Source: Escherichia coli (lineage in GTDB: Bacteria; Pseudomonadota; Gammaproteobacteria; Enterobacterales; Enterobacteriaceae). Taken from it: DNA of 64,000 nucleotides. This document shows, one piece after another, positions 6,027 to 60,633 of this stretch; position 1 is the first letter of the stretch, and the number at the start of each line of letters is the position of its first letter. The notes below the pieces were generated by a model. It made no database searches. It was not told the DNA's origin and saw only the letters and a program-made list of their open reading frames with translations. The stretch is from assembly GCF_016026235.1 (NCBI RefSeq), contig NZ_CP065613.1; one strand, 5' to 3'. Both the position numbers and the translations under genes were made by a program.

Positions 6027-6113
6027 CCATCCTCCACGTACTCCCTGAACGAAACCCGCCACCCTGCTATCGGCCTGGCATCATCGCGCAGGCCGAAGTT
6101 CAGGCAATACAAA

Positions 6114-6758: not shown

Positions 6759-6768
6759 AGTCGCATCC

Positions 6769-8222
<1,454 letters not shown>

Positions 8223-8224
8223 CG

Positions 8225-20425: not shown

Positions 20426-20431
20426 CCGCTC

Positions 20432-23787
<3,356 letters not shown>

Positions 23788-27168: not shown

Positions 27169-27672
27169 ATGGCAACCGCTGGAATGCTTCTCAAACTCAA
27201 CTCTCAAATGAACCGCGAGTTTTACGCATCCAATCTCTACCTTCACCTGAGTAACTGGTGTTCTGAACAGAGTCTGAACGGCACCGCCACTTTCCTTCGC
27301 GCCCAGGCACAGAGTAATGTGACCCAAATGATGCGCATGTTTAACTTTATGAAGAGTGTCGGCGCTACCCCCATCGTTAAAGCCATTGATGTTCCCAGTG
27401 AAAAACTGAACTCTCTGGAAGAACTGTTCCAAAAAACGATGGAAGAATACGAGCAACGTTCTAATACGTTGGCACAGTTAGCCGATGAAGCGAAAGAACT
27501 GAATGATGATTCAACCGTCAATTTCCTGCGCGATCTGGAAAAAGAACAGCAGCATGATGGTCTGTTGCTGCAAACCATTCTTGATGAAGTGCGCAGTGCG
27601 AAACTTGCGGGTATGTGCCCTGTGCAGACCGACCAACATGTTCTGAATGTCGTGTCACACCAGCTGCATTGA
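27169..27672 (+). CDS. ftnB: Ferritin-like protein FtnB (167 aa)
   Basis: Full-length match [40 protein letters not shown]... Confidence 0.92.
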
Positions 27673-31863: not shown

Positions 31864-32002
31864 ACGCTTTTCCTTGTGGATCTCAACTCGCCAGCACCTA
31901 TCTTACATGCCGGTCCGTATCAGAGATACTTTTTGAGTGGCTTTGCCGGTGATTAAAAATTAAGGAGGGTGTAACGACAAGTTGCAGGCACAAAAAAACC
32001 AC

Positions 32003-32114
32003 CCGAAGGTGGTTTCACGACACTGCTTATTGCTTTGATTTTATTCTTATCTTTCCCATGGTACCCGGAGCGGGACTTGAACCCGCACAGCGCGAACGCC
32101 GAGGGATTTTAAAT
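32003..32114. repeat. Left direct repeat of the island: terminator-like hairpin plus 56 nt copy of the tRNA-Leu 3' end (32059..32114), att-like
   Basis: About 95% identical to 60482..60601 (the 3' part of intact leuZ and its downstream terminator); tRNA identity is lost after ...GAGGGATTTTAAAT at 32114. Confidence 0.85.
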
Positions 32115-34053: not shown

Positions 34054-36396
34054 TGTTCTTATTACCTTTAACTAATTATGCCAATTCAGACTCAAACGCT
34101 GCATCATTCGCTTCAGCCTCTGCGCCATCAATTAATGCCAAGACTCGGTCAAGAAAGCGTTGCGCTTCGTATACATCTGTTGCTTGCCGCAGATAATGAG
34201 GTATTCGTTCAACAAACTCGGAACGTGATAAAGGCTGATGTTCCAGCAAAGCCTCAAGCATTGCGGGCCGCAACAAACGACGATCAGCATCAACATTAGG
34301 AAGCTCAACCTCAATGACATGTGTGGCAAAATACTTAAGTTGCTCCTTAAGCCCCAAATTGGGCATAAGAGAATCAATTGAGTCAGACGCCACTTCAGCG
34401 CTTGACTCAATCGTTTCGACATATTCACAGGAAGGTACAACAACGTCTGGAGCCAATGTTTTAAGCTCATGGAGTTTACGGATAATCGGAGATAGAACCT
34501 CATCAGGATTACTGAACCAATCAGTGGACCAAATGCGGCTAATTCTCCAACCCAAACGCTCCAGAACCTCTTGACGCAAACGGTCACGATCACGAGCAGA
34601 TTTAGCTGAGTGATAAGCCGCACCATCACACTCTATGCCCATTAAGTAACGGCCAGGACAACCTGGATCTTTCACAGCTAGATCAATAAAGAATCCTGCA
34701 ACCCCTACCTGAGGTTCACACTCAAACCCAGCGTGATTGAGTGCTTCCATTACAGCAACCTCAAAGTCACTATCTGGAGCCCTGCCGGTATGCGTTGTGA
34801 GGGAATCTAGTTTGCCACTTTCGGCAAACTGTAAAAAACCTTTCAACGAAATAACACCAAGTTTACTGGTTTCACTCGTCAATACATCTTCAGAACGCAT
34901 TGAACTAAACACATGCATCCGTTTTTTTGATCGAGTGAAAAGCACATTCAAGCGACGCCAGCCAACATCGGAATTGATAGGTCCAAAGCGTTGATAAACC
35001 TTTCCACCATGCTCAGAAGGTCCATAGGTAAAGGAAATAAAGATTACATCACGCTCATCCCCTTGAACGTTCTCAAGGTTTTTCACAAAAAGTGGCTCTT
35101 CCATGGCATATAAGCCATCGATTGCATCGTTAAATTCAGGGCGATTTCGGCGCAATTCATCGATAGCGCGCTCAATTTGATCGCGTTGCTTGGAACTCAT
35201 GGCCACTACCCCGAGTGACTCACCCGGCCGGTGTTGCGCATGATGAAGTACGGCCTCAGCAACTGCTTGGGCTTCTTCAATATTGTGTTGATTGGAGAAC
35301 CGACCTTTTGACACATAGGTAAATTTAATCCCATACTCTGGAGACTCAGCATTTGGGGAAGGGAATATCACCAAATCACTGTTATAAAAATGGCGGTTAG
35401 AGTATGCAATCAACTTTTCATGTCGTGAACGATAGTGCCAACGCAAACGTCTCATAGGAAACAGTGGCAAAGCAGCATCCAAAATGCTGTCAGTATCACT
35501 TAAAGCCGCGGCATCATCGTCATCTTCTCCGTCGGCACTTCGATCAAAGAAACTGGTTGGTGGTAGCTGTTTCGGGTCACCAACGACCACTAGTTGCTTG
35601 CCCCTCGCGATGACACCCAATGCATCCTCTGGCTTCACCTGAGACGCTTCGTCCATCACCACCAGATCAAATTCCATTCGTCCAGGTTCTAGGTAATGAG
35701 CTGCTGACATTGGCCCCATCATGAAACAAGGTTTAATTGCAACCAGCGCATTACATGCACGGTTAACCAATTGCCTAATTGGAATATGTCTGGTTTTTTT
35801 ACCCAACTCATTTTTGATCAAAGCTAGTTCTGTATATTCACTTTTCTTACCACCAGAATTCCCTTCTGGTATATTTCGGTAAGCAATTTTTGCTGCAATC
35901 CGCTGACGTTGTAATTCAATCAGTTTTTTGTCGTAATCTTTAAATGACTTCTGCAAAGCATTGCGCTGTGAGCCGGAAACTCTCATCAATTCAGGGTGGA
36001 TGTGAATAACCTCCCGCGCCAGCTGGTCATGAATTGCTAATGCTAAACCCAATTCAACTTTTTCAATCGGGAGCGAGCCCGCAAGTACAGCACTCCAGAT
36101 TCGCTGCAATCCATTTTCATGCATCTGCTCGTAACAACGAATAAAGTTAACCCACCCGTTCAACCAACGGGGTTGCTGTATTGCTCTTTCGTTGCGCTCG
36201 ATTAATGTATTAAGAGAACCATCAGTCGACTTGAGCCACTGACTCCGCTCTAACTTTGTTTCTAGCGCATATAACTCAGCATTTTTAATCTGTTCATTCC
36301 ATTTCGAAACTATTTCCCCACCATCACGACATAGTAAATCGGGTGATGCTGCCAACTTACTGATTTAGTGTATGATGGTGTTTTTGAGGTGCTCCA

Positions 36397-36672
36397 GTGG
36401 CTTCTGTTTCTATCAGCTGTCCCTCCTGTTCAGCTACTGACGGGGTGGTGCGTAACGGCAAAAGCACCGCCGGACATCAGCGCTATCTCTGCTCTCACTG
36501 CCGTAAAACATGGCAACTGCAGTTCACTTACACCGCTTCTCAACCCGGTACGCACCAGAAAATCATTGATATGGCCATGAATGGCGTTGGATGCCGGGCA
36601 ACTGCCCGCATTATGGGCGTTGGCCTCAACACGATTTTACGTCACTTAAAAAACTCAGGCCGCAGTCGGTAA
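36397..36672 (+). CDS. insA: IS1 protein InsA
   Basis: [43 protein letters not shown]... matches InsA. Confidence 0.9.
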
Positions 36673-37094
36673 CCTCGCGCATACAGCCGGGCAGTGACGT
36701 CATCGTCTGCGCGGAAATGGACGAACAGTGGGGCTATGTCGGGGCTAAATCGCGCCAGCGCTGGCTGTTTTACGCGTATGACAGTCTCCGGAAGACGGTT
36801 GTTGCGCACGTATTCGGTGAACGCACTATGGCGACGCTGGGGCGTCTTATGAGCCTGCTGTCACCCTTTGACGTGGTGATATGGATGACGGATGGCTGGC
36901 CGCTGTATGAATCCCGCCTGAAGGGAAAGCTGCACGTAATCAGCAAGCGATATACGCAGCGAATTGAGCGGCATAACCTGAATCTGAGGCAGCACCTGGC
37001 ACGGCTGGGACGGAAGTCGCTGTCGTTCTCAAAATCGGTGGAGCTGCATGACAAAGTCATCGGGCATTATCTGAACATAAAACACTATCAATAA
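36591..37094 (+). CDS. insB: IS1 transposase InsB reading frame (expressed as InsAB by -1 frameshift)
   Basis: ORF matches InsB (...[21 protein letters not shown]...); overlaps insA in the -1 frame. Confidence 0.85.
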
Positions 37095-40000
37095 GTTGGA
37101 GTCATTACCAGTAAATCGTAATCACTACCACTAGCCAAATGTCTGATCTGGGTAGCCAAGGATACGCAATTTATCTTATCAACCAGTTGCTCGGCAAAAT
37201 TCAGCGTGTCGTTAATAGTGTCTAACGTCAGTTGATTATTTTTATACGCACCGCAAGCCAATGGGGTTAATTGTAAAAACGCCCCTAACTGTAACGAGTC
37301 ATTTTCAAGGGATATCTGAAGATCGTTTATGTTTTGCAAAATCTCGGAGGAATGAGTCATCTGCTCTAATGATATATCTGGATTGATAAACCATCCCTGC
37401 AAGGCAATGAGAGTATTCCGCACCTGTCGGTAAGATTGCATCAATACACCTTGCTCACCTAACCAAGATGCATGTTCTTCCAACAAGCTAGAAATACGCG
37501 GTAATAACTTAGCCTCGTGCTCGACCCGTTTAACCAAAGTCATTAATCTTGAGCTAATCTGCGATTTCTCGATTAAATGCACACCTTTGATAATCTCACC
37601 ATCTAGGTTAATTAATCCAGAGCCTATCGCAACTCGCTTTCCAAAACCTATCCCGTAACAAGCTCGGACCTTCTTGTACCAATCACGCAATAACATGAGT
37701 TGTTCACAGTCGGTGTCCAACCCTCGGAATGCATTACCAAGTTGATTACCAAAGTCACTTTGTTCAAACCGTTGTAACAGCTCCGAATACTTGAGCAAAT
37801 CAGCTGAGCAGCGTTTTAACTCAGCAAACTTAGTGTCAGGCTTACGAGATTGCGCCATGAGCAGTGCCTTGGCACTACGCCAATCACTCTTAAACCATGC
37901 AAATAATCCCCCTTGCTGGATAACAGCAACGGCATGCGCGAGCATCTCTTGGGAAGGCAACTGGTCCAATTGATACAAAGTAGATAGACCATCTCTTAAA
38001 GGACGCAATGTTTCGATTTGACACATTAAGTCGCGCAATACTGCATCGATATCATCATCATCAAAAAGAGGATCTCGAACTCTAATAAGCTCAGTCGGTA
38101 AAGCACCCAGAATCGACAACAACTCAGAGCAGAATAGCAATCCAGCTTGCGAATCATCGATATACGAAGCAATACCATCTGGCAAAGCATTTTTGAAATC
38201 GTTTAATTGCGCATAAATAGATGATAACTCATCATGAATTGATTGGATGGATTCAAGCCACCTGACCAAATCACGTAAAGTGAAATCCTCTGCTGCACCA
38301 TATTTTTCCAGCTCTTCACGAGGAAAGTCACACGATTGTCCTTGTTCTAAAAGTCGTAGCTTTTGAGGCTCGATAACCTGGCTCAAGGCCACATAATGAC
38401 CTTGTAGCAACTCGAACCTATCTAAATAGTGACGCACCCGTGCAATGGCATCGAGTGAATCTAGCTCACTAAGTGCTGGGAAATGCTCTGAACCACACAA
38501 CACTGGAAGATTCGACTGATCTTCTACCAATTGCTCAATATATTGAAGCGTATTAAGGCTTTCGCCTTCTAACGCCCACTTATCTACATATTCTTGATAG
38601 CTATGTTGAAAGTCGATAATTGATGTCTGCCAAGTTTGTAGCAAATCGACTATACGAGCGCTGTCAAACAATTGAATTTGTGTGTTATTCACACCGCTCC
38701 AAGGGTGCTCATATATTTCTGCATTAGCCCCCACCTGCTCACGAACCTCTTTGTAGATGCGGCTAAACTCTACTATTTGGTCACGCAGCCGTAATTGGGT
38801 CACTTTATCCAACTGCTTCCCGGAAAGGTTTTCGATATGAAGTGCTGTTGCATCAATATCTAATTTGTGACGATAACGTGTTGCACCACTCAAAATCTGA
38901 TGGATCGTTTTGCCTGTTTGCGCCCATTGGTTATTGATCAATGCGGCATATTCATTGAGCTGCTGCTTAAGATCTTCATAACGCAAAATCTGAGCATCAA
39001 TCTCTTCCATAGTAGGCATGGTCGCCTGACTCACCAAGCGAGCATTAATATCATCCAGCACCTTGCGCTTATGAGTTTTATGACTGTGCAACTCTAAGCA
39101 AAATTGACCTAGCCCCGCACGATCCAAGCGACGTTTGACGACCTCCAGTGCAGCCATCTTCTCTGCCACAAACAGGACTTTCTTACCGTTGAGCAGAGCT
39201 GCTGCAATCAAGTTGGTGATCGTTTGTGATTTGCCACTACCAGGAGGGCCCTCAATGACTAAGTTTTGACCACGGATAGCATCGATCAACGCACTGTGCT
39301 GCGAGCTATCCGCATCATCGATTAGTGGAACCTTGTCATGAATATCAGGGTAACTATCGATGCAGTACTCATGCTGACCGAAGCCACCAGGTAAGCCGGA
39401 ATTCTCTTGACCACAGCTCTGACTGGTGAAAAAGCGACGAATTACTTCATGAGACAATATATTGCGCTTGTCACAAGGCCAGCGGGCAGGATCGAGGTCA
39501 AGATACATCATCATCTTGCCAAAATTGAGCAAGCTAAGTGCACCATAACGTTTCACAGACCATTTAGGTTTGTGCTGCTCTACAACCTTCTTCACCGAAG
39601 CAAAATAAGACTCTGGAGTTTCCTCTTCATTGAACAAAGGAAGAGCGAGGCCAAAGTCAGCCTGAAGTTTTTCCTTCAAAGAGAGATTGGGCAAAATATC
39701 TTCACCCGTGTAATAAAGTTGAAACTTGTAAAGACCATCCTTCGGATCTAATTTTCCTCGTTCACATCTCACCGGAATTGTAAATAACGGTGCATAACGT
39801 GCCTTTTCAGAGGAATCGCTTTCATACCACTCAAGGAACCCTAACGCCAAATACAAGATGTTGGCGCCACTCTCCTCCAAAGCAGTTTGAGCCTTACCAT
39901 AGATGGCGCGCAAACAAGCTTCCAGTTCATTTGGATAAAGCAGAGCCTGTATCCGATTATCGTCATGAGAGGAATTGGAAGAAGATATACTAATCTCATT

Positions 40001-40774
40001 CCCAGCCTTTGCCTGTCGTTCAAAATCCTCAAGCCCTTCATAGCCTGCTAAGCAGCACGCCTCCTTCAACGCTGACAAAGCTATACCTTGATTAACGTAT
40101 TCAGAACGAATCCCTGTTAATTTTCCATTCTGGCCTTGGGCATATTGCAAGATAAACTGATGGGCTTTTTCCAGCAACTCTCTATCTGAATCAGAAACAA
40201 CCGTTTTATGGCTATCTGGTAAATCAAAATCTGTACGGATTCCTAAGACGTGCGCCCAATCCTTAGCGCTAGGATGAGCTCTTAACTGTATATCTTTACC
40301 ATCTGGCCCAACTTTGAGATAGCCATGCTCTAACAGCTGCGCTCTAGTTGGATCGGGCACAGGAGCAAATTCCATCGGGATTTCCGAGCAAAGGGTTTCA
40401 TAAAGCTGTTCTGGTAATTCATCAACAATACGTAGTGAAGACCCTTTTTGAGTGATAGGGAAATTCAAAAGTCGATTTCGAGACGTAAGGTCCAATAACT
40501 TCTTACGCATAGCCTCGAGGGAAGTCAGAATAAAATCTGAGCCTCCTTGATTGAGTTCCTCTGCTGTAGAGGTATCTACAGTCGACATAATGTTCTCCAT
40601 TTCTTAGGGTCCACAAGTAAAACGTTTTATGCTGATGCATCACAAAAAGACCGCAGTAAACTGCTGCAAAGAAGAGGAGATTTTTAGTCTCCCCTTCTTT
40701 ATCAATCAGATCATACAATCAACTTAACGCCCATTAGTTGATAGCAGCCAAATTTCATAAACAGATTCAATCCG

Positions 40775-44276: not shown

Positions 44277-44887
<611 letters not shown>

Positions 44888-49007: not shown

Positions 49008-49691
49008 TCAATGCAGACAGCACTTCTTAAATTTTTTACCGCTGCCACACGGACACGGGTCATTTCGCCCGGGCATGTTTTCTGCCCCCTTCACTGGAAC
49101 AGGCCGGGATGATGCCTCTGACATTCTCACCGACAACCAGTGCTGGTAAAGCGCCAGTGCCGCAGGCTGAATGAGAGTAATACTCTGTTCAAATTGAACA
49201 GGTGACATTTTCTCAACCACTGGGAAGTTCTTTTCGATACCATGAAGGGCTATCGCCTCCAGCGAGGGACGTAAGGCCTCTGGCAAGGCTGACCAGTCAT
49301 CCAGAGACCGGCCTTTCATATACCCGAAACACCACTCTTCGACGATTGTATATGTCTTCCCCTTCACCTCACGTCCATTGAAAATCGGTTCAAACTGTTC
49401 AGGGGCCTCATACAGGCAGCCAGCGATATCGTTCATATGCTGAAAACACAGCCCCACAAAACGCGTCATCTCTTTTTCAGTGGTCCAGTGAGGGTAGTAG
49501 TCACCTCGCCCCCAGATAGCACTAAGCCAGGTATTAGGGGGGATCATATTCGGGCCAGAGACAATCGCTGTCAGAAAGCCATCCAGCTCAGAGAAACAGA
49601 GCACAGAGTCATCATTGCCGTATTTCAGCAACACCTCTTCCAGCCAGTCGATTTCCCGGTCAATCAGCGGCCCGCTTTTCGTCAGTTTCAT
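49008..49691 (-). CDS. YecA-family (UPF0149) SEC-C-motif protein paralog embedded in the type I R-M operon (227 aa)
   Basis: Aligns along its length with chromosomal YecA (31198..31863), including the C-terminal [20 protein letters not shown]; start ATG overlaps the hsdS stop (ATGA). Confidence 0.85.
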
Positions 49692-50914
49692 TCGGCAACC
49701 GCCTCATCGACCTTAACACGACGTTTGCCAGTCAATAGCTGTTGCATCAGGGCTTTTTTCTCATCTCTCAGGCAGGCGAGTTTTTTCTCCAGCGTGGAGA
49801 TTTCGGTGTCAGCAGCGGACAGCACGGCGGCGATTTTTTGTTGCTCTTTAATAAATGGGCAAGAAAAGCTTAAAGTTTCAAAATCTTTCTTGGAAAGTTC
49901 TAAAAATGTTGAGCCAGATGATTTTTTGATCATCTCATTTGTGTTCATTTGCAACAAATAATAAATAAATTCGATATTAAACCCTTCATTCGGAATGATG
50001 TTTTTAAAACCTTGATTGGTACAAATTTCCGATGTCGAAATTGCTAAAGCACCAATGGTAGCTCTTGTACATACCATCAAACTACCTTTTGGCAAAAGAA
50101 CAGCTGAGCTATTTAGTAATCCCGCAGGAGTAATTTTTCTACTAGTATTGCTAACGAACCTACCCGTTAATGCAGTAACATCAGTTGGGGTAAGCCATAG
50201 AATATCGCCTTCCCAATACATGGCCATGTTTGTATCAGGTGTTCCACCGGATACAACTTTGCCCATTTGTATTAGTTTAGTAATTTTCCACTCCCCACTA
50301 AACCTCACCCCATTCTCATCCAACAACCGTTTATTCCCGGTAAGCAATTGCTGCATCAGGGCTTTTTTCTGCTGTTGACTGTTGGCGAGAAGGCTTTCCG
50401 TCACCGAAATTGCCTTATCCCAGGCGGTCAGAATTTGAGATATTTTATCTTGTTCACAAATAGCAGGAGTTTTTATGTTTAACGCTCTAATATCAGAAAG
50501 GTTAATTCTAGAAAAGGTAGAACCACCTGCACTTTTTGCTATCTGTCGCTGGACTAAATCTGATTGTAATGTGTAGTAAATAAACCGCCAATCTGCATGG
50601 ATTGCTTTAATTAAGACAGTGTCTTGCCCTAATACAAATGGCTTTTTGGAATCCACATAGCTAACAACACCGACAGACTGGTTACGACTCATAACCAAAT
50701 CACCTTGTTCAACAACACAGTGATCCATCAGAGAGCGATATTCTTCTTCTGTAACTCTTTTTACAGGTGAAATCAGATCTAAGGCTCCCCATTTTATCGT
50801 CCCCGGTGAGACAAGTGGTATTCCCGATTTAACGTACTCAGGAGTCCTGTGTTTGCAATCGATTATCGACGCAACCGATGAGAGTTTCTGAGATGACCAC
50901 CCCTTAGGAATCAT
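49688..50914 (-). CDS. hsdS: Type I restriction-modification specificity subunit HsdS (408 aa)
   Basis: Two variable target-recognition domains separated and followed by the conserved repeat [11 protein letters not shown]; start overlaps the hsdM stop. Confidence 0.88.
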
Positions 50915-52427
50915 AACCCAACTCCTTCAGATACCCCGCCATCTCCGTTTCCAGCTTCGCCAGTTCCGCCTTCAGTTGCTCGCGTTCGGCGCGTACGGCC
51001 AGCAAATCAATCTCGTCTTCTTCTTCAAAGGTATCGACATAGCGCGGAATATTGAGGTTGTAATCGTTGTCCTGAATTTCCTTCAGGCTGGCAAGATAGG
51101 CGTATTTCTCGACGTTATCGCCATCACGGTAGGTCTTGACGATTTTCTTAATGTTTTCTTCGCTAAGCTGGTTCTGGTTTTTACCTGCCTTGAATTCACG
51201 GCTGGCATCGATAAACAGCACCTTGTCATCAACTTTCTGCTTTTTGAAAATCAGAATCGCAGCCGGAATCCCCGTACCGTAGAACAGTTTTTCCGGCAGA
51301 CCAATTACCGCATCCAGCAAATTTTCGTCGATCAGTTTCTGGCGAATTTTACCTTCGCTGGAGCCACGGAAAAGCACACCGTGTGGCACAACTACGCCCA
51401 TACGGCCAGTTCCCGGTTTCAGGGTTTCGATCATATGCGAGATAAAAGCGTAATCTCCTTTAGTCTTCGGCGGTACACCGCGACGAAAACGGCCAAACTT
51501 ATCGTTCTCGGCCTCGTCATGGCCCCACTTATCGAGGCTGAACGGTGGGTTAGCGGTCACGATATCAAACAGCATCAGGTCGCCATTTTTATCGAGCAGC
51601 TTCGGGTTGCGAATGGTATCGCCCCACTCGATTTTATGGTTGTCTTCCCCGTGCAGGAACATATTCATTTTCGCCAGCGACCACGTAGAACCGATCGCTT
51701 CCTGACCGAACAATGCATAGTTACGACTATCATGCCCGGAGACAATTTTACGCCCACACTTCATCAATAATGAACCGGAACCACAGGCTGGATCGCAGAT
51801 GGTATCACCCGGTTGCGGATCGAGCAGTTCTGCAATCAGGTCCGAAACTTCCGGCGGGGTATAGAACTCCCCGGCTTTCTGCCCACCGCTGGCGGCAAAG
51901 TTTTTGATCAGGTATTCGTAAGCATTGCCGATAACGTCCAGCGTACCGACACGACTCGGCTTCAGGTTGAGATCTTCACCGGCGAAGTCTTCCAGTAGCT
52001 GACGAAGGATGGTGTTTTTCTGTTTTTCTTCGCCAAGACGATCGGTGTTAAACGAAATATCCTGGAACACGCTTTTCCCGGCATCTTTCAGTTTGGTTCC
52101 GTTGGCTTCTTCGATTGCATGCAGAGCCTGATCGATACGCTCACCGTTACCCGGCTCATGGCGGCGTTCGTACAGCGCATAAAAGCTGGCACTTTTTGGC
52201 AGTACAAAACGCTCGTTGGCCATCATCGCTTCAATCAGTTCCGGCACATCGCCATACTGTTCTTTGTATTCGTCATAGTGATCCTGCCAGACATCTGAAA
52301 TGTACTTGAGGAACAGCATGGTAAGGATAAAGTCTTTATAGGTATCAGCACTGATGGTGCCACGGAACGTATCACACGCGGCCCACAGGGCTTTGTTGAT
52401 CGTGTCCTGACTGATTTTGTCGTTCAT
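50904..52427 (-). CDS. hsdM: Type I restriction-modification N6-adenine DNA methyltransferase subunit HsdM (507 aa)
   Basis: AdoMet-binding and catalytic motifs (DPACGSGSLL, NPPF). Confidence 0.9.
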   Translation of the reverse strand: MNDKISQDTINKALWAACDTFRGTISADTYKDFILTMLFLKYISDVWQDHYDEYKEQYGDVPELIEAMMANERFVLPKSASFYALYERRHEPGNGERIDQALHAIEEANGTKLKDAGKSVFQDISFNTDRLGEEKQKNTILRQLLEDFAGEDLNLKPSRVGTLDVIGNAYEYLIKNFAASGGQKAGEFYTPPEVSDLIAELLDPQPGDTICDPACGSGSLLMKCGRKIVSGHDSRNYALFGQEAIGSTWSLAKMNMFLHGEDNHKIEWGDTIRNPKLLDKNGDLMLFDIVTANPPFSLDKWGHDEAENDKFGRFRRGVPPKTKGDYAFISHMIETLKPGTGRMGVVVPHGVLFRGSSEGKIRQKLIDENLLDAVIGLPEKLFYGTGIPAAILIFKKQKVDDKVLFIDASREFKAGKNQNQLSEENIKKIVKTYRDGDNVEKYAYLASLKEIQDNDYNLNIPRYVDTFEEEDEIDLLAVRAEREQLKAELAKLETEMAGYLKELGYDS

Positions 52428-52730
52428 GAATCATCCTGGTCTGAAGAAAAAGCTAGCGATGCAGGGCTTTGCATCTTAAAAATTTCGGTAAATGATACCG
52501 TAAGATGCCTCCCCTGACACGCCAATATCGCAGCATTCAGGTTTGCATCATCCCCGTAATATCGACATGAGACAGACTGACACAACCTGGCTCGTCACTC
52601 GCTAAAAACCAATTATCTTAGTAAGATAGCATCCATATTAGCCATGGTGTAAAACTGCCGTTGGGGTAATGATGATCCATATATCACCCGTTCTGGTGTG
52701 TGAAGCTGACATCATCCATAATCGGCAACG

Positions 52731-53966
52731 TTGATGCCCTTTGATAGTAATGATGACCGTCAATGTGATTCCCCTGCTGACTGGAGGTCTCCGGATAGTA
52801 TGAGTATTACCAACTGCGTTATCGGCCCACTTTACGATGAGCAAATAAAAAAAACACTTATGTATGCTGACCATAAATTCAAGCGGCTAATGAATACACG
52901 AATGTCGTTACTCGAACATTTATCACCCCACTATGACTTATCTTCCATGTTCAGCTATGAGTTGGAGGGAAGAGTTTTTCGGATTAAATTGATCAAGCCT
53001 GAGATTAAATTATCTCGCCAGCAGTTGATCTTCTCCTCACTCTTTTTAGAGCAAGATTTTCTAAAAGAATATAAAAAACACATCTCAAATACTCTACAAA
53101 AAACAATCAAACAGTGCATTAAAAAATACAAACAAAAAATCAAAATCGAGCCTTCTATTTTAGATTACATATCAGCGTCACCCCGCAATACGTCGAGTTA
53201 TGTATTACATGAGATAGTTTCTCAATGTGAACATTGCGATGAAATTCGCAATATTAAAAATGATATATTGCTTGATGAACTAACGTTGAATGGCCGGATC
53301 ACTAACATTTCAAAATACATTAAAAACAGTCAAGATAAAATCGTCGAACATATAGAGTTCTGCACTCATAAACTTGTCAATATAAGTCGTAAGAATCGTC
53401 ACATTTTCAACAGCACCACAATCTCTGGCAGAAAACCCAACATCACTGGTGTTTTACTTTGCCTTTCAGAATTGATAAGCAACCTGCATATTTACCCAAC
53501 TGAAATTAATAATATAAGCAATGCCATAATATTAAGCATTGTATACTCTGTACTTCAACATCTTCAATCCGGAAGAAAAACAGAAAAAACAAAAACCTCT
53601 CCAGCACTGGATTTCATCCCCACCATCATCGCACCTCATGTTTTCTACCTGGCGAAACGCGAAAAATCCTCTCAATATAAATACATTGAAAAAGAATATC
53701 TTCTCGGCCAGTTACTTATATTTTTGATGTATAAAACAGTTTACTACTCGATTCATAACATCAGGGTAAGCCGTAAGCATTTCTATAACGATATAAAACC
53801 AAAATTAATGATACTAAAAAAAGAAAGCTTATTAAGCACCAATTTCATGAAAAATCGAAGAGAGATTAGTGGTGAAGTCTTTGGTGATGTTGGTAGTATT
53901 GAGGCTGATTTTCGAGAAATCAGCACATTGATTCATCGGCGAAAGGCTCTGTTTATTTCCTTTTAA
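52731..53966 (+). CDS. AT-rich hypothetical protein (411 aa), no recognisable motif
   Basis: Long ORF in a strongly AT-rich segment; Lys/Ile/Asn-rich product; start codon uncertain (the first ~25 codons are GC-richer than the rest). Confidence 0.55.
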   Translation: MMPFDSNDDRQCDSPADWRSPDSMSITNCVIGPLYDEQIKKTLMYADHKFKRLMNTRMSLLEHLSPHYDLSSMFSYELEGRVFRIKLIKPEIKLSRQQLIFSSLFLEQDFLKEYKKHISNTLQKTIKQCIKKYKQKIKIEPSILDYISASPRNTSSYVLHEIVSQCEHCDEIRNIKNDILLDELTLNGRITNISKYIKNSQDKIVEHIEFCTHKLVNISRKNRHIFNSTTISGRKPNITGVLLCLSELISNLHIYPTEINNISNAIILSIVYSVLQHLQSGRKTEKTKTSPALDFIPTIIAPHVFYLAKREKSSQYKYIEKEYLLGQLLIFLMYKTVYYSIHNIRVSRKHFYNDIKPKLMILKKESLLSTNFMKNRREISGEVFGDVGSIEADFREISTLIHRRKALFISF

Positions 53967-54368
53967 TCTTTAGAGAACACTATATCATCGTGAAGCAGAG
54001 CTAATTTCAGCCTTGCATAGATCATTATCAATGCCATAGACAGTGTTAATCATATGACATCGTTCCGGTATTGATACTGATTATCAGGCCTTGGTTTTAT
54101 GTAATTTAAACACCACCATCTCTGAAACCTCACAGTGCTCATATTTTAACCATAAAAACTAACCGATTTACACCCGCCACACACCGTCATAACTTATTGT
54201 ATTTAAATAGCTATAAGCCTCTAACTCACTGATTACACCATTAAATTCAAGCCATATCCTTACGCAGATTCAAGCTTGCCCCTGCTGCCATTCACGTTTT
54301 AGGATTACCTCGCTAACACGACATGCTACTTTTTAAATCAGTGTAATAATTCAAACGAGGATAAAATT

Positions 54369-55499
54369 ATGTTCGAGAAAATGAAAAACAATGTAACCCG
54401 TATGCCGGGGAATTTAACAAAACTTAATCAATACCAAAAAGACATTGATCACCTGTCTAAACTATTTTCTGAACAGCAATTACTGGAACTAATGACGACT
54501 ACCGAATCCGATCAAATATTGCAAATGAAGCCTGCTGTAGATATTCTTCATGTACTATCTCCATCAGCATCTACTGCTAAGCATATCAATTTTTTTCAGC
54601 ACGTCCCAGTGCTCGAACAATGGTTAAAAAAGGAGTGCACTGCCTTTAATTTACTGGCAGTACATTTCTATTCACAGCAATCCCGTAAAAATGTAATTCC
54701 GAAAGAAATCTGTATGCTACTGGATGCATTTATTGAAACTGAACTTTCATCTGCGGTTAATGGTAATAATAATGCCGAACTCCTTTCTTGTTTTCAAAAC
54801 ACGCTGGATAAAATGTGCAATACACTAACATTTATAGACCACACAGTTACGGAACAATCAGGTCAAGTAGCAATGCTTGATTTCAGCGCAAAAATGCATG
54901 AATATACTGTTGAAATCAGGACCTTTTTGAAGTCTGAATACTGGCTAAACAAACTACCTAAGGATATTAACATTCCAGCCATTGACCTATCCTGGCTTGT
55001 GTTTTGTTACTTTTGCTCTGAATATCTTTTTGTATTTATTCAAACAACGCTCAATACAATGAAGGCAGGAAAAATCATTCGTGATAACTACCTTTATCAT
55101 CCTAAAATGATTGCATTGATCATTTTATCTATGCTGCCTTATGAAGTCATTCATAACGATGGATCACTGAATAAGTTTAAAACGCCTTTAACCAGCCCTG
55201 ATGAGTTCATAATCAAATCTATTTGCATTAAAGGTAAGCAAAACACTACAGGGCATAAAAAAGATATAGAACAATTGCTTCGTAAGACATATATCTATAT
55301 TGCATTACTCTTAAACCCTGAGTGGGCACCATCTTCCAAGGAGTTGATTTCCTTTTTATCAGGAAAGTCCTCAGTGATAAGTGGTTCACTCAACTTCCAG
55401 TCAACCTCCAGTGGTCTGGGTGTTCAAACAAACAATATAACTCTTCTTAAGAATGAGGTTTACTTCGAAAAAATAGCGAACAAGATCATGAAACTGTAG
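54369..55499 (+). CDS. AT-rich hypothetical protein (376 aa), no recognisable motif
   Basis: Long ORF in an AT-rich segment; RBS-like GAGGA upstream of the ATG. Confidence 0.55.
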   Translation: MFEKMKNNVTRMPGNLTKLNQYQKDIDHLSKLFSEQQLLELMTTTESDQILQMKPAVDILHVLSPSASTAKHINFFQHVPVLEQWLKKECTAFNLLAVHFYSQQSRKNVIPKEICMLLDAFIETELSSAVNGNNNAELLSCFQNTLDKMCNTLTFIDHTVTEQSGQVAMLDFSAKMHEYTVEIRTFLKSEYWLNKLPKDINIPAIDLSWLVFCYFCSEYLFVFIQTTLNTMKAGKIIRDNYLYHPKMIALIILSMLPYEVIHNDGSLNKFKTPLTSPDEFIIKSICIKGKQNTTGHKKDIEQLLRKTYIYIALLLNPEWAPSSKELISFLSGKSSVISGSLNFQSTSSGLGVQTNNITLLKNEVYFEKIANKIMKL

Positions 55500-55642
55500 T
55501 TTCTTAATATAATGGCGACATGGAATTGTGTTGCCATTATATCCGAATCTGCGTTTTTTCACCTGATGAACTGTGAAAGCTGTAACTGGCAGACTATAAC
55601 CTCACATCGTATTTTTCCAGTGTCATTTACAGGAGAAATACG

Positions 55643-56779
55643 ATGCCTATTCTGGATCTGCGTTTCAGCAACAAATCAATTCACCAACTTCCACATCCCC
55701 TCACGGGTTGTCAGGAATACCGTGATATTCACTGCCAAAACCTGCGTGCTCTGGTGTATCCCAATCGGATCACGCTGGCCTTTCGTGCCACTATAAACAA
55801 TCAGCGTATATATGAAACCCTGGGTCAGTTCCCTCAGCTCTGCGTTGAGGATGCCCGTCAGCATGTGATGAAACTGCTTGCTGATAAAAATCGTCTTGCG
55901 GTTCAGTCCCGTCGATTCACTGTGGAACAGGCCATCAATGACCTGTGGCTACCGGATTTGCAGTTGTATAAAAAGAGTCCTCAGTCAGAGTTGTCAAAAC
56001 TCAACCTCTACGTTCGCCCGTTCTGGGGCAAGCGGCAACTTCGCGACATCACGGCAGGAGAACTAGAACAATATGCTGCTGGCTTACGGGAAAAATTACG
56101 TCCGTCAACAGTAAACCGTATCCTCGCAATATTGTCCAAAATATGCTCTCTGGCAGTACGTGCTGGATGGATCACACATTCCCCGATGTCACATGTCCGC
56201 TATCTGAAAGAAAATAACATTCGCTATCGCACACTGTCAGCGACAGAAATCCCGCGCTTTATTGACGCGGCAACAGCGCTGCAAACACCGGCAGCTGATT
56301 CTATATTGCTTGCTCTTTATACGGGGATGCGTATTGGTGAGGTATGTACCCTGAAATGGGAGTACTGGCACCCGGATATGCATCAACTCATACTGCCTGA
56401 TACAAAGTCCGGACACCCTTTCACCTGCCCACTTGCACCTCCAGCCATTGCAGTTGTCCAGTGCCAGCAGGACCTGATGCTCAGCAAAACTTACATTTTT
56501 CCACAACTAACCGACAATGCCCGCCCTCTGGCATATCCGCGTGCAACCTTTGCCCGTATTTGCCGGGATGCCGACATTGATAACCTGCGGATGCATGACC
56601 TGCGCCGTACCTTTGCCACCCGGGTACTACAGGCGACCGGGGATATTGCAATCGCTTCCCATCTGCTAAATCACCATTCACTCACGGCGACCCGTCGCTA
56701 CGCTTTTCACAATGCAGCGACATCACACGCAGTGGTTTCTCAGGTCATAGAAAGTTATGACACAAAAATGAACCTATGA
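55643..56779 (+). CDS. int: Tyrosine recombinase / phage-type integrase (378 aa)
   Basis: C-terminal catalytic motifs (MRIGEVCTLKW, HDLRRTFATRVL, LNHHSLTATRRYAFH) and an N-terminal arm-type region (FSNKSIHQLP). Confidence 0.85.
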   Translation: MPILDLRFSNKSIHQLPHPLTGCQEYRDIHCQNLRALVYPNRITLAFRATINNQRIYETLGQFPQLCVEDARQHVMKLLADKNRLAVQSRRFTVEQAINDLWLPDLQLYKKSPQSELSKLNLYVRPFWGKRQLRDITAGELEQYAAGLREKLRPSTVNRILAILSKICSLAVRAGWITHSPMSHVRYLKENNIRYRTLSATEIPRFIDAATALQTPAADSILLALYTGMRIGEVCTLKWEYWHPDMHQLILPDTKSGHPFTCPLAPPAIAVVQCQQDLMLSKTYIFPQLTDNARPLAYPRATFARICRDADIDNLRMHDLRRTFATRVLQATGDIAIASHLLNHHSLTATRRYAFHNAATSHAVVSQVIESYDTKMNL

Positions 56780-56921: not shown

Positions 56922-57050
56922 ATGTATTTAACCATTAAGCAGTTCGCAGAAAGATTTAATCTTTCTGCATCCACGGTTGCGTCAGATATATCGCGCAACC
57001 CCGGAAAACTCCCGCCCTTCATCAGAATTGGGCGGGCTATACGATTCTCT
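56922..57050 (+). pseudogene. AlpA-family helix-turn-helix regulator/excisionase-like gene truncated by IS1
   Basis: MYLTIKQFAERFNLSASTVASDISRNPGKLPPFIRIGRAIRF resembles AlpA-type HTH proteins; the reading frame runs into the IS1 terminal repeat at 57051. Confidence 0.6.
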
Positions 57051-57818
57051 GGTAATGACTCCAACTTACTGATAGTGTTTTATGTTCAGATAATGCCCGA
57101 TGACCTTGTCATGCAGCTCCACCGATTTTGAGAACGACAGTGACTTCCGTCCCAGCCTTGCCAGATGTTGTCTCAGATTCAGATTATGTCGCTCAATGCG
57201 CTGAGTGTAACGCTTGCTGATAACGTGCAGCTTTCCCTTCAGGCGTGATTCATACAGCGGCCAGCCATCCGTCATCCATACCACGACCTCAAAGGCCGAC
57301 AGCAGGCTCAGAAGACGCTCCAGTGTGGCCAGAGTGCGTTCACCGAAGACGTGCGCCACAACCGTCCTCCGTATCCTGTCATACGCGTAAAACAGCCAGC
57401 GCTGACGTGATTTAGCACCGACGTAGCCCCACTGTTCGTCCATTTCAGCGCAGACAATCACATCACTGCCCGGTTGTATGCGCGAGGTTACCGACTGCGG
57501 CCTGAGTTTTTTAAGTGACGTAAAACCGTGTTGAGGCCAACGCCCATAATGCGTGCACTGGCGCGACATCCGACGCCATTCATGGCCATATCAATGATTT
57601 TCTGGTGCGTACCGGGCTGAGAGGCGGTGTAAGTGAACTGTAGTTGCCATGTTTTACGGCAATGAGAGCAGAGATAGCGCTGATGTCCGGCAGTGCTTTT
57701 GCCGTTACGCACCACGCCTTCAGTAGCGGAGCAGGAAGGACATCTGATGGAAATGGAAGCCACGCAAGCACCTTAAAATCACCATCATACACTAAATCAG
57801 TAAGTTGGCAGCATTACC
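57051..57818 (-). mobile_element. IS1 (768 bp), divergent isoform, no target site duplication
   Basis: Terminal repeats GGTAATGACTCCAACTTA (57051..) and GGTAATGCTGCCAACTTACTG (reverse complement at 57818); insA 57488..57763 and insB 57066..57569 differ at several residues from the IS1 copy at 36342. Flanking 9-mers differ (CGATTCTCT vs CATCTTCAA). Confidence 0.9.
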
Positions 57819-57935
57819 CATCTTCAAATGGGAGTACCAGCTCTGTTTTCAACAGACTCATTACTGACTCCGGAAGAAGGAGCGACGGCAGGTCTTGCCA
57901 GTTCGAGACAAATTTCATTGAATAATCCTCATAAA

Positions 57936-58013: not shown

Positions 58014-58256
58014 TTAAATTCTTTCATAATACCCACAGTCCATACAGATAAGCACTGGCGCATTATTTCTTTCACACTGTTCAAGGAATCCAAATAGTTT
58101 TTTAATAGCCTTAATAATTTCTTTCAGTATTTCAGGTAAAAACTCCAGGCTAATATACCCAGAGCGTTTATTATCGGTTATCGATGGCAGTTTTCCTGCT
58201 GAACTTATCAATGTATTACAACTGCCACACTGTGGGCATTTTAAATGCATCCTCAT
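58014..58256 (-). CDS. Small zinc-ribbon protein (80 aa), AT-rich
   Basis: Two CxxC pairs (CPQCGSC ... CMDCGYY). Confidence 0.5.
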   Translation of the reverse strand: MRMHLKCPQCGSCNTLISSAGKLPSITDNKRSGYISLEFLPEILKEIIKAIKKLFGFLEQCERNNAPVLICMDCGYYERI

Positions 58257-58286: not shown

Positions 58287-59516
58287 TCACATCTGCTTCG
58301 TAGCCGCAGTATTCAGAAGCAGGTCAGTCACTCCCTGCCCTGTCTGACGCATACGTTCCGGTGTTAATTTCGCGTAACGTTCTGTACTCTGAATACTGGC
58401 ATGCGCCAGTTGGGCTTTAACGTCATACAGGCTGAATTGACCACTCGAAACCAGTAAAGAGGCAACAGAATGACGTGTGGTGTGAAAACAGACTTCATTC
58501 TTGTCTATACCGCACTGTGCCAGTATTTTTTCATATGCCCATCGGGGTTCCGATATCGGTTTTCCATTATCCTTAATGGCGAACAGATACGGATTACTGC
58601 CAACTCGTGGGATAGCATCAATAATCGATAATGCGGCATCGCTTAGATATACCGTCCGACTGCGACCATTTTTTGTATAAGGAATGAACAGAGTACGATT
58701 GGCCCGGTCGATATGTTCATGCCTGACATTAAGCATTTCTGATTTGCGTGTACCGGTTAACAACAACATGGCTATCAATCCCCCGGCAGCTTTGTTGGGA
58801 TATTGGGTAGCAGCGTCAAGAATGCGCCTGATCTCATCAGCATCAAAAAAGCGCGTCCGCTGATTATTCTCTTTCAGTAAAGGGATCTTATCGGCTTCAT
58901 TCTTTTCCAGCACATCCTGTCGCAACGCATAACGCCCCATCGTTTTCAGAATAGCAAGGGCTCTGTTACAGGTAGACGGCGCATATTGCTGCCCGTGAAT
59001 ACGCCCCTCCAGCATGTCAAACAGCACCTGTTGTATCTCTCTGGCCCTGAGATCGCAGTAACGTATCTTTCCCAGACGAGGTTCAATGTATTGCGTGAAA
59101 CGCTGAACATCCTTATCCCAGGACTTTTTATGGCGTTTGATGAACGGAACATAGGTCTGGTGAAAAAACTCACTAAGTGTTGGCATCGCACGATAATTAT
59201 CGCGTTCTGCTTTAGGGTCATTTCCCAGTGCAATCGCCTCCTTATGACGGCGAGCTATCTGGCGAGCTGTCCCCACATCAATTTCAGGGAATCTGCCAAT
59301 ACTGATACTTTTTTTGGTACCGTGGAATGTGTAGCGCAGGAGGAAACGTTTGTTACCCGTTCGACCTGAGAGACATTTGAGGCCAATAACTTCGGTATCA
59401 GATACCTCAAGCTCTGTAGATCTGGTATCTGTGTTTGCCGGAAGGGCTTTGATGGATGAATTGGTGAATCGGAAGGATTTTTGCATATTTATCCTCATGT
59501 ATCTGATTGATATCAT
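58287..59516 (-). CDS. int: Tyrosine recombinase / P4-type integrase (about 400 aa; start may be a downstream Met)
   Basis: Arm-type N-terminus (FRFTNSSIKALP), catalytic motifs (LLLTGTRKSEMLNVRHEHI, HTTRHSVASLL, STERYAKL); located close to the tRNA-Leu end of the island. Confidence 0.85.
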   Translation of the reverse strand: MISIRYMRINMQKSFRFTNSSIKALPANTDTRSTELEVSDTEVIGLKCLSGRTGNKRFLLRYTFHGTKKSISIGRFPEIDVGTARQIARRHKEAIALGNDPKAERDNYRAMPTLSEFFHQTYVPFIKRHKKSWDKDVQRFTQYIEPRLGKIRYCDLRAREIQQVLFDMLEGRIHGQQYAPSTCNRALAILKTMGRYALRQDVLEKNEADKIPLLKENNQRTRFFDADEIRRILDAATQYPNKAAGGLIAMLLLTGTRKSEMLNVRHEHIDRANRTLFIPYTKNGRSRTVYLSDAALSIIDAIPRVGSNPYLFAIKDNGKPISEPRWAYEKILAQCGIDKNEVCFHTTRHSVASLLVSSGQFSLYDVKAQLAHASIQSTERYAKLTPERMRQTGQGVTDLLLNTAATKQM

Positions 59517-60307: not shown

Positions 60308-60481
60308 AGCATTACAGCTTGCTCAGCGGCCCCCTTCCCGGAAGCGTACCGGAAAACAGGCAAAGCGGCCTGGTTCTCTATGCTGGAAGCGACACGTTCG
60401 ATTCGGCATTGCCAGGCTGAAGATTGCAGCTCATCGCACCCCGTGAGCACAGGATATGCACAGGACATGAATTTCAGGCAC

Positions 60482-60601
60482 AAAAAAACCACCCGGAGGT
60501 GGTTTCACGACACTGCTTATTGCTTTGATTATTCTTGTCTTTCCCATGGTACCCGGAGCGGGACTTGAACCCGCACAGCGCGAACGCCGAGGGATTTTAA
60601 A
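60482..60601. repeat. Right direct repeat of the island (leuZ 3' part plus downstream terminator hairpin)
   Basis: About 95% identical to 32003..32114. Confidence 0.85.
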
Positions 60602-60633
60602 TCCCTTGTGTCTACCGATTCCACCATCCGGGC
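60547..60633 (-). tRNA. leuZ: tRNA-Leu (anticodon UAA)
   Basis: Reverse complement reads GCCCGGATGGTGGAATCGGTAGACACAAGGGATTTAAAATCCCTCGGCGTTCGCGCTGTGCGGGTTCAAGTCCCGCTCCGGGTACCA. Confidence 0.95.

What the first reader, a model, noticed from the sequence alone, without database searches (positions are those of the whole stretch)
52428..55499. Two strongly AT-rich orphan genes (411 and 376 aa) between hsdM and an integrase
Both ORFs are long, co-directional, markedly AT-rich (about one third GC by eye) and encode Lys/Asn/Ile-rich proteins with no catalytic or structural motif I can recognise. Their position between an R-M system and an integrase in a defence-loaded island makes them candidates for unknown defence, abortive-infection or effector genes, probably H-NS silenced. 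They are the least explainable coding sequences in the window.
Basis: seen in the sequence. Interest (0 to 1): 0.65.

Follow-up and report, generated by a model that had tools for sequence, protein, structure and literature searches.

The report
Two orphan genes inside a pipolin
The two AT-rich genes are real, conserved genes with no known relatives, sitting in a fixed slot beside the inner recombinase of a known E. coli mobile defence island (a pipolin), so they look like element-specific genes rather than part of the neighbouring restriction system, and their function is still unknown.

Summary
Two co-directional ORFs lie at 52731/52800-53966 (A) and 54369-55499 (B). They are 34-36% GC against about 50% in the flanks. 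The region is a tRNA-Leu-integrated E. coli pipolin bounded by 130-bp direct repeats at 31985 and 60475. In this strain IS1 has deleted the piPolB polymerase.

Both genes are under purifying selection (dN/dS 0.11-0.29). Neither matches Pfam, NCBIfam, PADLOC, PHROGs or PDB sequences. B's AlphaFold model (pLDDT 71, all-alpha) has no fold relative.

B sits directly upstream of the IntP2 recombinase, followed by the excisionase, p212 and piPolB wherever the locus extends that far, in 26 of 26 places across 11 enterobacterial genera, whatever the cargo. It diverges about four times faster than its neighbours. Deeply different alleles (A+B1, or B2 alone) are swapped between conserved flanks.

A is optional, exchanged separately and sometimes frameshifted. 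An A-like gene fills the same slot in a related DUF927-primase island. Neither gene occurs in phages or, intact, on plasmids.

Best reading, at low confidence: these are element-specific slot genes, with B a sensor or controller of the recombinase-replication module. A novel defence role is not excluded. The context is known; the function is not.

The parts
31985..32114 (.). Distal direct repeat (att-like) of the pipolin.
   Evidence: It is 96.9% identical over 130 bp to 60475-60602.
50904..52427 (-). hsdM, the last gene of the type I R-M cargo and the left neighbour of the cassette.
   Evidence: The protein is 97-99% identical in other genera.
52428..52687 (.). The hsdM-proximal part of the spacer. 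It is shared between the A+B1 and B2 versions of the element and probably holds divergent promoters.
   Evidence: Homology with the B2-type E. coli pipolin L023 runs up to 52687 at 91% identity.
52688..55554 (+). The exchangeable AT-rich cassette (A + B1). In other E. coli it is replaced by a 1.25-kb B2-only cassette.
   Evidence: The AT-rich block coincides with it.
52800..53966 (+). Gene A, 388 aa from the conserved start (the mechanical ORF starts at 52731). It is basic, predicted all-alpha, and an orphan.
   Evidence: dN/dS is 0.11-0.29.
53967..54368 (.). The A-B spacer (402 bp). It contains a recombination junction at about 53972-54005 and presumably B's promoter.
   Evidence: In C. amalonaticus the A segment is 95% and the B segment 86% identical to the window, with the switch here. 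A Shine-Dalgarno GAGGA sits 7 nt before B's ATG.
54369..55499 (+). Gene B (B1 allele), 376 aa. It is all-alpha, an orphan, and fixed in position upstream of IntP2.
55507..55542 (+). A hairpin just after B's stop codon, which looks like a terminator.
   Evidence: The arms are 14 nt and 93% complementary. Phytobacter and Edwardsiella have a hairpin of different sequence at the same place.
55555..55642 (+). The conserved IntP2 leader. It holds an invariant box ATGAACTGTGAAA (55566-55578) and an inverted repeat (55605-55645) that overlaps the IntP2 RBS and ATG.
55643..56779 (+). The inner tyrosine recombinase (IntP2 type).
   Evidence: and PMC11551731.
56922..57059 (+). A remnant of the excisionase gene (HTH_17), cut by IS1.
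57051..57819 (-). IS1. It replaces about 7.0 kb of pipolin core: the excisionase 3' end, p212, piPolB, DUF2787 and orphan genes.
   Evidence: by comparison with the intact locus L001.
58287..59516 (-). The outer tyrosine recombinase (IntSXT type) next to the tRNA.
   Evidence: plus precomputed Arm-DNA-bind_3 and Phage_integrase hits on orthologues.
60475..60602 (.). The proximal direct repeat, overlapping the 3' half of tRNA-Leu(taa) at 60547-60633.

Best explanation
What it is (high confidence, about 0.9). A and B are real protein-coding genes. Together they form a discrete, independently transcribed, AT-rich cassette in a fixed slot immediately 5' of the inner IntP2-type recombinase of an E. 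coli pipolin. The pipolin is integrated at tRNA-Leu, and in this strain IS1 has deleted its piPolB polymerase.

B behaves as a backbone-linked gene specific to enterobacterial pipolins. It is at that position in every locus examined, whatever the cargo. It evolves about four times faster than IntP2 and piPolB, and it circulates as deeply divergent alleles exchanged between conserved flanks. A is an optional second occupant of the slot, linked to the B1 allele lineage.

How it most likely works (inferred, about 0.35-0.4). B is a trans-acting protein that serves the element itself rather than acting as portable defence cargo. The most likely role is a sensor or controller of the IntP2-excisionase-p212-piPolB excision/replication module. 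In this model the conserved N-terminal (about 1-60) and C-terminal (about 200-330) parts do the constant job. One possibility is that they act on the invariant leader box upstream of IntP2. The variable middle (about 126-200) would give allele-specific recognition of a signal or partner. A would modulate or add to this function. The AT-rich cassette is probably kept at low expression, with H-NS as the obvious candidate. In this window the module B would serve is already destroyed, so A and B persist here as leftovers of a crippled element.
For: Element identity:
- The neighbour in the near-identical locus L001 has the piPolB hallmarks K613/H614 and KTRG623.
- The gene order matches PMC11551731.

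The genes are real:
- dN/dS is 0.11-0.29.
- Alignments show conserved blocks.

B is fixed in position:
- It is directly upstream of IntP2 in the window plus 25 of 25 loci from 11 genera.
- The cargo on the other side is type I R-M, type III R-M plus UvrD, or dynamins.
- About 95% of IntP2-positive complete E. coli genomes carry B1 or B2.

B evolves fast and is swapped as alleles:
- B is 36-43% identical where IntP2 is 77% and piPolB 71%. dN is 0.53 against 0.14.
- The swap has sharp breakpoints at 52687 and 55555, with 97.5%-identical core beyond.

A and B are element-restricted:
- Neither is in 50,697 phage records. A is not on 72,556 plasmids. B appears there only as an IS1-cut stub.
- Only 32 cluster representatives among 1.84 billion match the B profile.
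- An A-like gene fills the equivalent slot between backbone genes in a DUF927-primase island.

B is its own transcription unit:
- It has its own Shine-Dalgarno sequence, a downstream hairpin, and a separately conserved IntP2 leader.
- The invariant box occurs once per locus in 22 of 22 IntP2 loci.

Conservation along B: residues 126-200 vary most and 301-325 least.
Against: - No DNA-binding or any other domain is detected in A or B.
- The N-terminal helix-helix-hairpin in the B model is only moderately confident, and its second helix is acidic.
- B1 and B2 are exchanged without any change in IntP2 or piPolB, so there is no sign that B co-evolves with a core partner.
- The invariant box could equally be a promoter element or a site for IntP2, the excisionase, the WYL protein or a host factor.
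- The B family is confined to Enterobacterales, while IntP2-piPolB modules also exist in Vibrionales and Aeromonadales (PMC11551731). B is therefore not indispensable to that module.
- Fast evolution, AT-richness and a position at the cargo edge of a defence island fit a defence gene equally well.
- A is frameshifted in C. koseri, and truncated forms of both proteins exist in databases.
Confidence: 0.4

Rival explanations
1. A and/or B are novel stand-alone anti-phage genes: defence, abortive infection or superinfection exclusion. They would be kept silent by H-NS, be triggered by infection, and possibly act at the membrane through B's hydrophobic helical pair.
For: - They lie in a defence island next to type I R-M, PDC-S12, HEC-06-like genes and Hhe.
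- They are AT-rich with twice the A/T-tract density of the window.
- They evolve fast, with allelic replacement between conserved flanks.
- A is patchy and exchanged separately.
- B-family segments 205-230 and 245-265 reach Kyte-Doolittle values of 1.6-2.08 in several members.
- The sub-threshold fold hits are mostly membrane helical bundles.
Against: - No PADLOC model matches any member.
- B is never replaced by an unrelated gene in 26 places, whereas all other cargo varies.
- Neither gene is seen in phages or intact on plasmids, unlike the pipolin defence cargo that PMC11551731 reports as exchanged with other mobile elements.
- In the window copy no 19-residue window reaches 1.6, and the loop between the two helices is positively charged, which does not fit a simple transmembrane hairpin.
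Confidence: 0.25
2. B (with or without A) is a counter-defence or establishment factor that protects the incoming pipolin from host restriction or other defences.
For: Fast evolution and alleles independent of the core fit an arms race with host systems. The genes are element-specific.
Against: - There is no similarity to any anti-restriction family.
- The proteins are large and not acidic. B is neutral and A is basic, unlike DNA mimics.
- There is no evidence of early or leading-region expression.
- How pipolins transfer is itself unknown.
Confidence: 0.08
3. The proteins have little or no present function. The AT-rich block would matter mainly as DNA, for example as an H-NS-bound insulator between cargo and core, or the genes are slowly decaying passengers.
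For: - AT-richness is conserved in every genus, including at third codon positions.
- A is frameshifted in C. koseri.
- Truncated variants exist.
- The consensus scan finds no strong sigma-70 promoter upstream of either gene.
Against: - dN/dS is 0.11-0.29 over saturated synonymous divergence.
- Full-length ORFs are kept at 36-43% identity across genera, with invariant motifs.
- Long ORFs are especially unlikely to persist by chance in AT-rich DNA.
Confidence: 0.1
4. A and B are integron-like cassettes captured site-specifically by IntP2 at a site just upstream of its own gene.
For: - The cassette boundaries are sharp, and the right one lies 88 bp before the IntP2 start.
- A and B are separately exchangeable.
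- Hairpins follow the genes.
Against: - No repeated attC-like site flanks the cassettes.
- B is homologous in all lineages, so it is inherited and not repeatedly captured.
- IntP2 scores far below the integron-integrase cutoff, 23.5 against 265 bits.
- Homologous recombination in the conserved flanks is enough to explain the swaps.
Confidence: 0.04

Closest known systems
Enterobacterial pipolins (piPolB-encoding integrative elements; Redrejo-Rodriguez 2017, PMC5695915; Mateo-Caceres and Redrejo-Rodriguez 2024, PMC11551731)
   Same: - Integration at tRNA-Leu, with flanking direct repeats.
- IntSXT next to the tRNA.
- An inner IntP2 plus excisionase next to piPolB.
- Distal defence cargo (type I R-M, PDC-S12, Hhe, HEC-06).
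- Frequent IS-linked deletions between IntSXT and piPolB.
- Many orphan genes.
   Different: The window copy has lost piPolB, p212, DUF2787 and part of the excisionase gene to IS1. The main text of the paper does not single out the gene 5' of IntP2. Its near-universal presence, fast evolution and allele swapping are described here.
SaPI Stl master repressors, and the P2 C / 186 CI immunity repressors encoded next to the integrase (from my own knowledge, not tested here)
   Same: A gene fixed in position beside the integrase of an integrative element. It is homologous across elements but very divergent, consistent with allele-specific recognition.
   Different: - No helix-turn-helix or other DNA-binding domain is detected in A or B.
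- B is 376 aa and all-alpha with no fold match.
- The gene arrangement is co-directional, with B as its own transcription unit, not a divergent repressor/operator layout.
- No helper phage is known for pipolins.
Single-gene abortive-infection proteins of the AbiD/AbiF/AbiJ kind (AT-rich, about 350 aa, helical)
   Same: Size, helical prediction, AT-richness and a mobile-element setting. There is one weak AbiJ_NTD4 hit for the window copy of A (i-E 0.036-0.038).
   Different: The hit appears in only 1 of 8 family members and is far from significant. I found no conserved HEPN Rx4-6H motif by eye in the alignments. No PADLOC model matches.
piPolB-less, pipolin-like islands with a DUF927 primase (Enterobacter, Citrobacter, E. 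coli; loci L010, L027-L030)
   Same: They share backbone genes (DUF2787, small orphans, an IntSXT-like recombinase) and have an inner integrase with a large AT-rich orphan directly upstream. That orphan is 46% identical to A.
   Different: The replicase is a DUF927 primase, not piPolB. The inner integrase is only about 26% identical to IntP2. B and the IntP2 leader box are absent.

Membership tests
Pipolin (the element that contains A and B) | Encodes a primer-independent PolB (piPolB). | tested here: not met
   The window has no piPolB. IS1 at 57051-57819 replaces about 7.0 kb that includes it. The near-identical locus L001 has an 866-aa protein with K613/H614, KTRG623 and a weak DNA_pol_B_2 hit. 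The window therefore holds a piPolB-deleted derivative.
Pipolin (the element that contains A and B) | Integrated at the 3' end of a tRNA gene and flanked by att-like direct repeats. | tested here: met
   A 130-bp repeat lies at 31985-32114 and 60475-60602. The latter overlaps tRNA-Leu(taa).
Pipolin (the element that contains A and B) | The enterobacterial core: IntSXT near the tRNA, and IntP2 plus an excisionase near piPolB. | tested here: met
   IntSXT is at 58287-59516, IntP2 at 55643-56779 and the excisionase remnant at 56922-57059. The order matches PMC11551731.
Known anti-phage defence systems (PADLOC-DB 2.0) | A significant match to a defence-protein HMM. | tested here: not met
   There are 0 families at E<=1 for A and B. 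For nine distant family members the only hit is noise, PDC-M36B at E 0.039.
AbiJ-like abortive infection proteins | AbiJ N-terminal domains plus a C-terminal HEPN domain with the Rx4-6H motif. | tested here: not met
   AbiJ_NTD4 scores i-E 0.036-0.038 in the window copy only, 1 of 8 members. No HEPN domain is found. I saw no conserved Rx4-6H in alignments A3 and A4 by inspection.
Stl/CI-type master repressors | An N-terminal helix-turn-helix DNA-binding domain. | tested here: not met
   No HTH family appears in Pfam or NCBIfam for any member. The B model has a helix-helix-beta-hairpin at residues 15-53, of uncertain meaning.
Stl/CI-type master repressors | Binds operators that control the excision/replication operon. 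| not testable with these tools
   A candidate site exists: the invariant ATGAACTGTGAAA box in the IntP2 leader. Binding needs EMSA or ChIP.
Integron gene cassettes | attC recombination sites flanking each cassette, and an IntI-type integrase. | tested here: not met
   No repeated attC-like element is found. IntP2 scores 23.5 bits against the 265-bit cutoff for integron integrase.
H-NS-silenced xenogeneic genes | AT-rich relative to the host genome. | tested here: met
   GC is 0.34-0.36 against 0.49 for the window. 24% of 100-bp windows are at least 68% AT, against 3% window-wide.
H-NS-silenced xenogeneic genes | Bound and repressed by H-NS. | not testable with these tools
   This needs ChIP-seq, or RNA-seq in an hns mutant of a pipolin-bearing strain.
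Integral membrane proteins | At least one transmembrane helix. | tested here: inconclusive
   The highest Kyte-Doolittle 19-residue value is 1.51 in the window's B and 1.23 in A. Some B homologues reach 1.7-2.08 at 205-230 and 245-265. The loop charge disfavours a hairpin. No dedicated predictor was available.

The most novel reading that the evidence does not exclude
B, alone or with A, founds a new protein family with a new all-alpha fold. It is either a previously unrecognised single-gene anti-phage or exclusion system carried constitutively by every enterobacterial pipolin, or the missing switch that senses a trigger and turns on pipolin excision and piPolB-driven replication. The second option would give the first experimental handle on how pipolins are regulated and move.
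Probability: 0.3. Interest if true: 0.65.

Novelty: new variant of a known kind. Interest (0 to 1): 0.4.

Why it matters
Pipolins are widespread defence islands, yet their regulation, mobility and benefit to the host are still unexplained, and piPolB is the only hallmark gene with a tested activity. B is specific to these elements, nearly always present, fixed beside the inner recombinase, and evolving fast through allele replacement. That makes it a concrete candidate for the interface between the element and whatever it responds to: phage, host or a rival element. If B controls excision and replication, it makes pipolin biology experimentally testable. If it is a defence gene, it adds a new fold to the defence repertoire. 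If neither, the finding reduces to two hypothetical proteins in a known island.

Tried and rejected
- **Sequence families.** PADLOC, NCBIfam, PHROGs and Pfam gave nothing consistent, for the window copies and for every member of both families. The AbiJ_NTD4, HAM1_C, TagK and NBAS hits are noise.
- **A and B as paralogues.** Rejected by BLASTP and by hhalign (probability 0.2%). A shared short motif G[KR]x(1,2)NxTG, noticed by eye, is unsupported.
- **Wider homology.** A profile search for A added no new proteins. An exhaustive profile search for B found only 32 cluster representatives. A scan of 100,044 species genomes found 6 loci, all in Enterobacterales.
- **Phage or plasmid origin.** Rejected.
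- **Known RNA in the spacers.** No Rfam hit.
- **Iterons, a replication origin or attC sites in the cassette.** No convincing repeats.
- **Riboregulator in the IntP2 leader.** The hairpin is conserved but has only one covarying pair, so it stays a side note.
- **Transmembrane protein.** Inconclusive.
- **Consensus promoter scan.** Uninformative, with fewer sites than in shuffled sequence.
- **Supplementary tables of PMC11551731.** Not held, so I could not check whether B is one of the paper's two core orphan clusters.
Full report
**Observation.** RefSeq annotates both as hypothetical proteins in near-identical E. coli chromosomes, starting the first at ATG 52734. All homologues outside E. coli begin at the residue corresponding to M23, and a GGAGG lies upstream of that ATG (52800). 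The real product of the first gene, here called A, is therefore probably 388 aa. GC is 0.344 for A and 0.358 for B, against 0.50 for hsdM on the left and the integrase on the right. This is the longest AT-rich block in the window, with twice the A/T-tract density.

**The genes are real.** A has homologues at 46-69% identity, in E. coli, Citrobacter, Phytobacter, Salmonella and Edwardsiella, plus an Enterobacter-group variant. B has homologues at 36-70% identity in eleven enterobacterial genera. Pairwise dN/dS is 0.11-0.29 for A and 0.16-0.28 for B at informative divergence, against 0.07-0.17 for the adjacent integrase. Alignments show invariant blocks.

**They are true orphans.**
- PADLOC, NCBIfam, PHROGs and Pfam give nothing significant or consistent, for the window copies or for each family member.
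- The weak AbiJ_NTD4 hit of A is seen in only 1 of 8 members.
- A and B are not detectably related to each other.
- Profile searches against PDB sequences return nothing at E<=10.
- AlphaFold gave an unusable model for A (pLDDT 41.5, helical).

**Context: a pipolin.**
- A 130-bp direct repeat (31985-32114 and 60475-60602) overlaps the 3' half of tRNA-Leu(taa) and bounds a 28.6-kb element.
- In intact relatives such as L001 the order is tRNA, IntSXT-type recombinase, small orphans, DUF2787, (WYL), an 866-aa protein, p212, excisionase, IntP2-type recombinase, B, A, then cargo.
- The 866-aa protein carries K613/H614 and KTRG623, exactly as published for the E. coli primer-independent PolB, and has a weak DNA_pol_B_2 hit.
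- This is the enterobacterial pipolin architecture described in PMC11551731, including the typical cargo found here: Hhe, a HEC-06-like pair, type I R-M and PDC-S12.
- In the window itself, IS1 (57051-57819) replaces about 7.0 kb, from inside the excisionase gene to inside an orphan next to IntSXT. This removes p212, piPolB and DUF2787. The paper reports such IS-linked deletions as common.

**Where A and B belong.** B is directly upstream of IntP2, on the same strand and 140-300 bp away, in the window and in all 25 other IntP2 loci recovered. This holds whether the cargo on the other side is type I R-M, type III R-M plus a UvrD-nuclease (Serratia), or dynamin-like GTPases (Plesiomonas). In complete E. 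coli genomes IntP2 is found in 286, B1 in 250, a second allele B2 in 22, A in 261 and piPolB in 296. About 95% of IntP2 carriers therefore have a recognisable B.

B is much more diverged than its neighbours. It is 36-43% identical where IntP2 is 77% and piPolB 71%, and dN is 0.53 against 0.14. The adjacent hsdM is 97-99% identical.

Within E. coli two fillings of the slot exist: A+B1 (2.87 kb) or B2 alone (1.25 kb; B2 is 43% identical to B1). Homology stops at 52687 and resumes at 55555, then continues at 97.5% through piPolB.

A and B have separable histories. In C. amalonaticus the A segment is 95% identical to the window and the B segment 86%, with the switch in the spacer. In C. koseri A is frameshifted while B is intact.

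An A-like gene (46% identical) sits alone in the equivalent slot of a related island. It lies upstream of a different inner integrase, between backbone genes, and the island has a DUF927 primase in place of piPolB.

Neither protein is encoded in 50,697 phage records. A is absent from 72,556 plasmids. B appears there only as an IS1-truncated stub dragged along with the type I R-M.

**Transcription units.** B has its own Shine-Dalgarno sequence and a hairpin right after its stop. The 88 bp upstream of IntP2 are conserved across genera. They hold an invariant ATGAACTGTGAAA box, found once per locus in 22 of 22 IntP2 loci and twice in Plesiomonas. They also hold an inverted repeat that overlaps the IntP2 RBS and ATG. 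Covariation support for that hairpin is weak. No Rfam family matches the region.

**Interpretation.** The anatomy is well supported: A and B form a discrete, exchangeable, AT-rich cassette in a fixed slot at the boundary between pipolin core and cargo.

For function only inference is possible. I favour an element-specific role for B, at about 0.35-0.4, for three reasons:
- It is never replaced by an unrelated gene.
- It is not found on other mobile elements, unlike the exchangeable defence cargo.
- The A family occupies the same slot inside the backbone of a sister island.

B has conserved ends and a variable middle (residues 126-200), and its alleles are swapped independently of the core. That fits a protein with a constant output and an allele-specific input. 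A sensor or controller of the IntP2-excisionase-p212-piPolB module is the most economical such role, and the invariant leader box is a testable target.

Fast evolution, AT-richness, the island setting and the hydrophobic helical pair in some B homologues all fit it. Counter-defence, loss of function, and integron-like capture are less likely, for the reasons listed under rivals.

**Novelty and score.** The element type and the existence of orphan genes in it are known. The specific behaviour of the gene 5' of IntP2 does not appear in the main text of the pipolin papers I could read: near-universal, pipolin-restricted, fast-evolving, allele-swapped, with no known fold. Their supplementary tables were not available. 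This is a modest but concrete lead into an open question, namely what regulates and moves pipolins. It is not a surprising new system. Interest is 0.4.

Noticed in passing
window 57051-57819 (IS1), with junctions at 57058 and 57819: IS1 replaces about 7.0 kb of the pipolin core relative to the intact locus L001: the excisionase 3' end, p212, piPolB, DUF2787, and the 176-aa and most of the 123-aa orphan genes. The element has therefore probably lost self-replication and IntP2-directed excision.
   Followed up: yes
window 34076-36355 and 37088-40600, with an inverted IS1 copy at 36341-37100: The anti-phage helicase gene hhe is split in two by a second IS1 copy. PADLOC Hhe profile positions 1-1161 and 1158-1911 fall in separate ORFs. 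A third, partial IS1 lies at 44512-44887.
   Followed up: partly
window 55555-55645: The IntP2 leader is conserved across 11 genera. It has an invariant 13-mer, ATGAACTGTGAAA, and an inverted repeat that would occlude the IntP2 RBS and start codon. This is a possible operator or translational control element. Only one base pair covaries.
   Followed up: partly
window 49008-49691: A YecA-like (UPF0149/SEC-C) gene is embedded between hsdS and hsdR and matches the PADLOC candidate PDC-S12 (E 1e-97). It is present in the lineages that also carry A (E. coli, Phytobacter, Edwardsiella) and absent from the B2/B3-type loci examined. This may be simple linkage.
   Followed up: no
window 58014-58256 (-): An 80-aa ORF with CxxC...CxxC (zinc-ribbon-like) lies between IS1 and IntSXT. 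It is unannotated in RefSeq locus L001 but called as an 83-aa gene at the same place in other genera (L006, L011).
   Followed up: no
L031 (Klebsiella quasipneumoniae plasmid pKqu-1, NZ_CP097647.1) 1-9002: A pipolin-type type I R-M operon (with YecA and a cold-shock-domain gene) sits on an IncFIB plasmid. It still carries a 97-aa 5' stub of a B-like gene cut by IS1. This is direct evidence that pipolin cargo moves to plasmids and where the break occurred.
   Followed up: partly
L010, L027-L030 (Enterobacter ludwigii and relatives): A pipolin-like island carries a DUF927 primase in place of piPolB. It shares DUF2787 and small backbone orphans, and has an A-like gene directly upstream of its inner integrase.
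   Followed up: partly
L003 (Serratia marcescens) 1-1659 and 19923-21143: IntSXT plus the 246-aa gene appear at the left end of the locus, and backbone genes appear again at the right end. This suggests tandem or adjacent pipolin-type elements at one tRNA, as the 2024 paper reports for some Vibrio.
   Followed up: no
window 32577-33773 (+): A 398-aa ORF lies just inside the distal direct repeat. It has no PADLOC match, and its function was not examined.
   Followed up: no
window about 19001-20500 and 26251-27500: Two other blocks have GC below 0.40, outside the pipolin. They were not examined.
   Followed up: no
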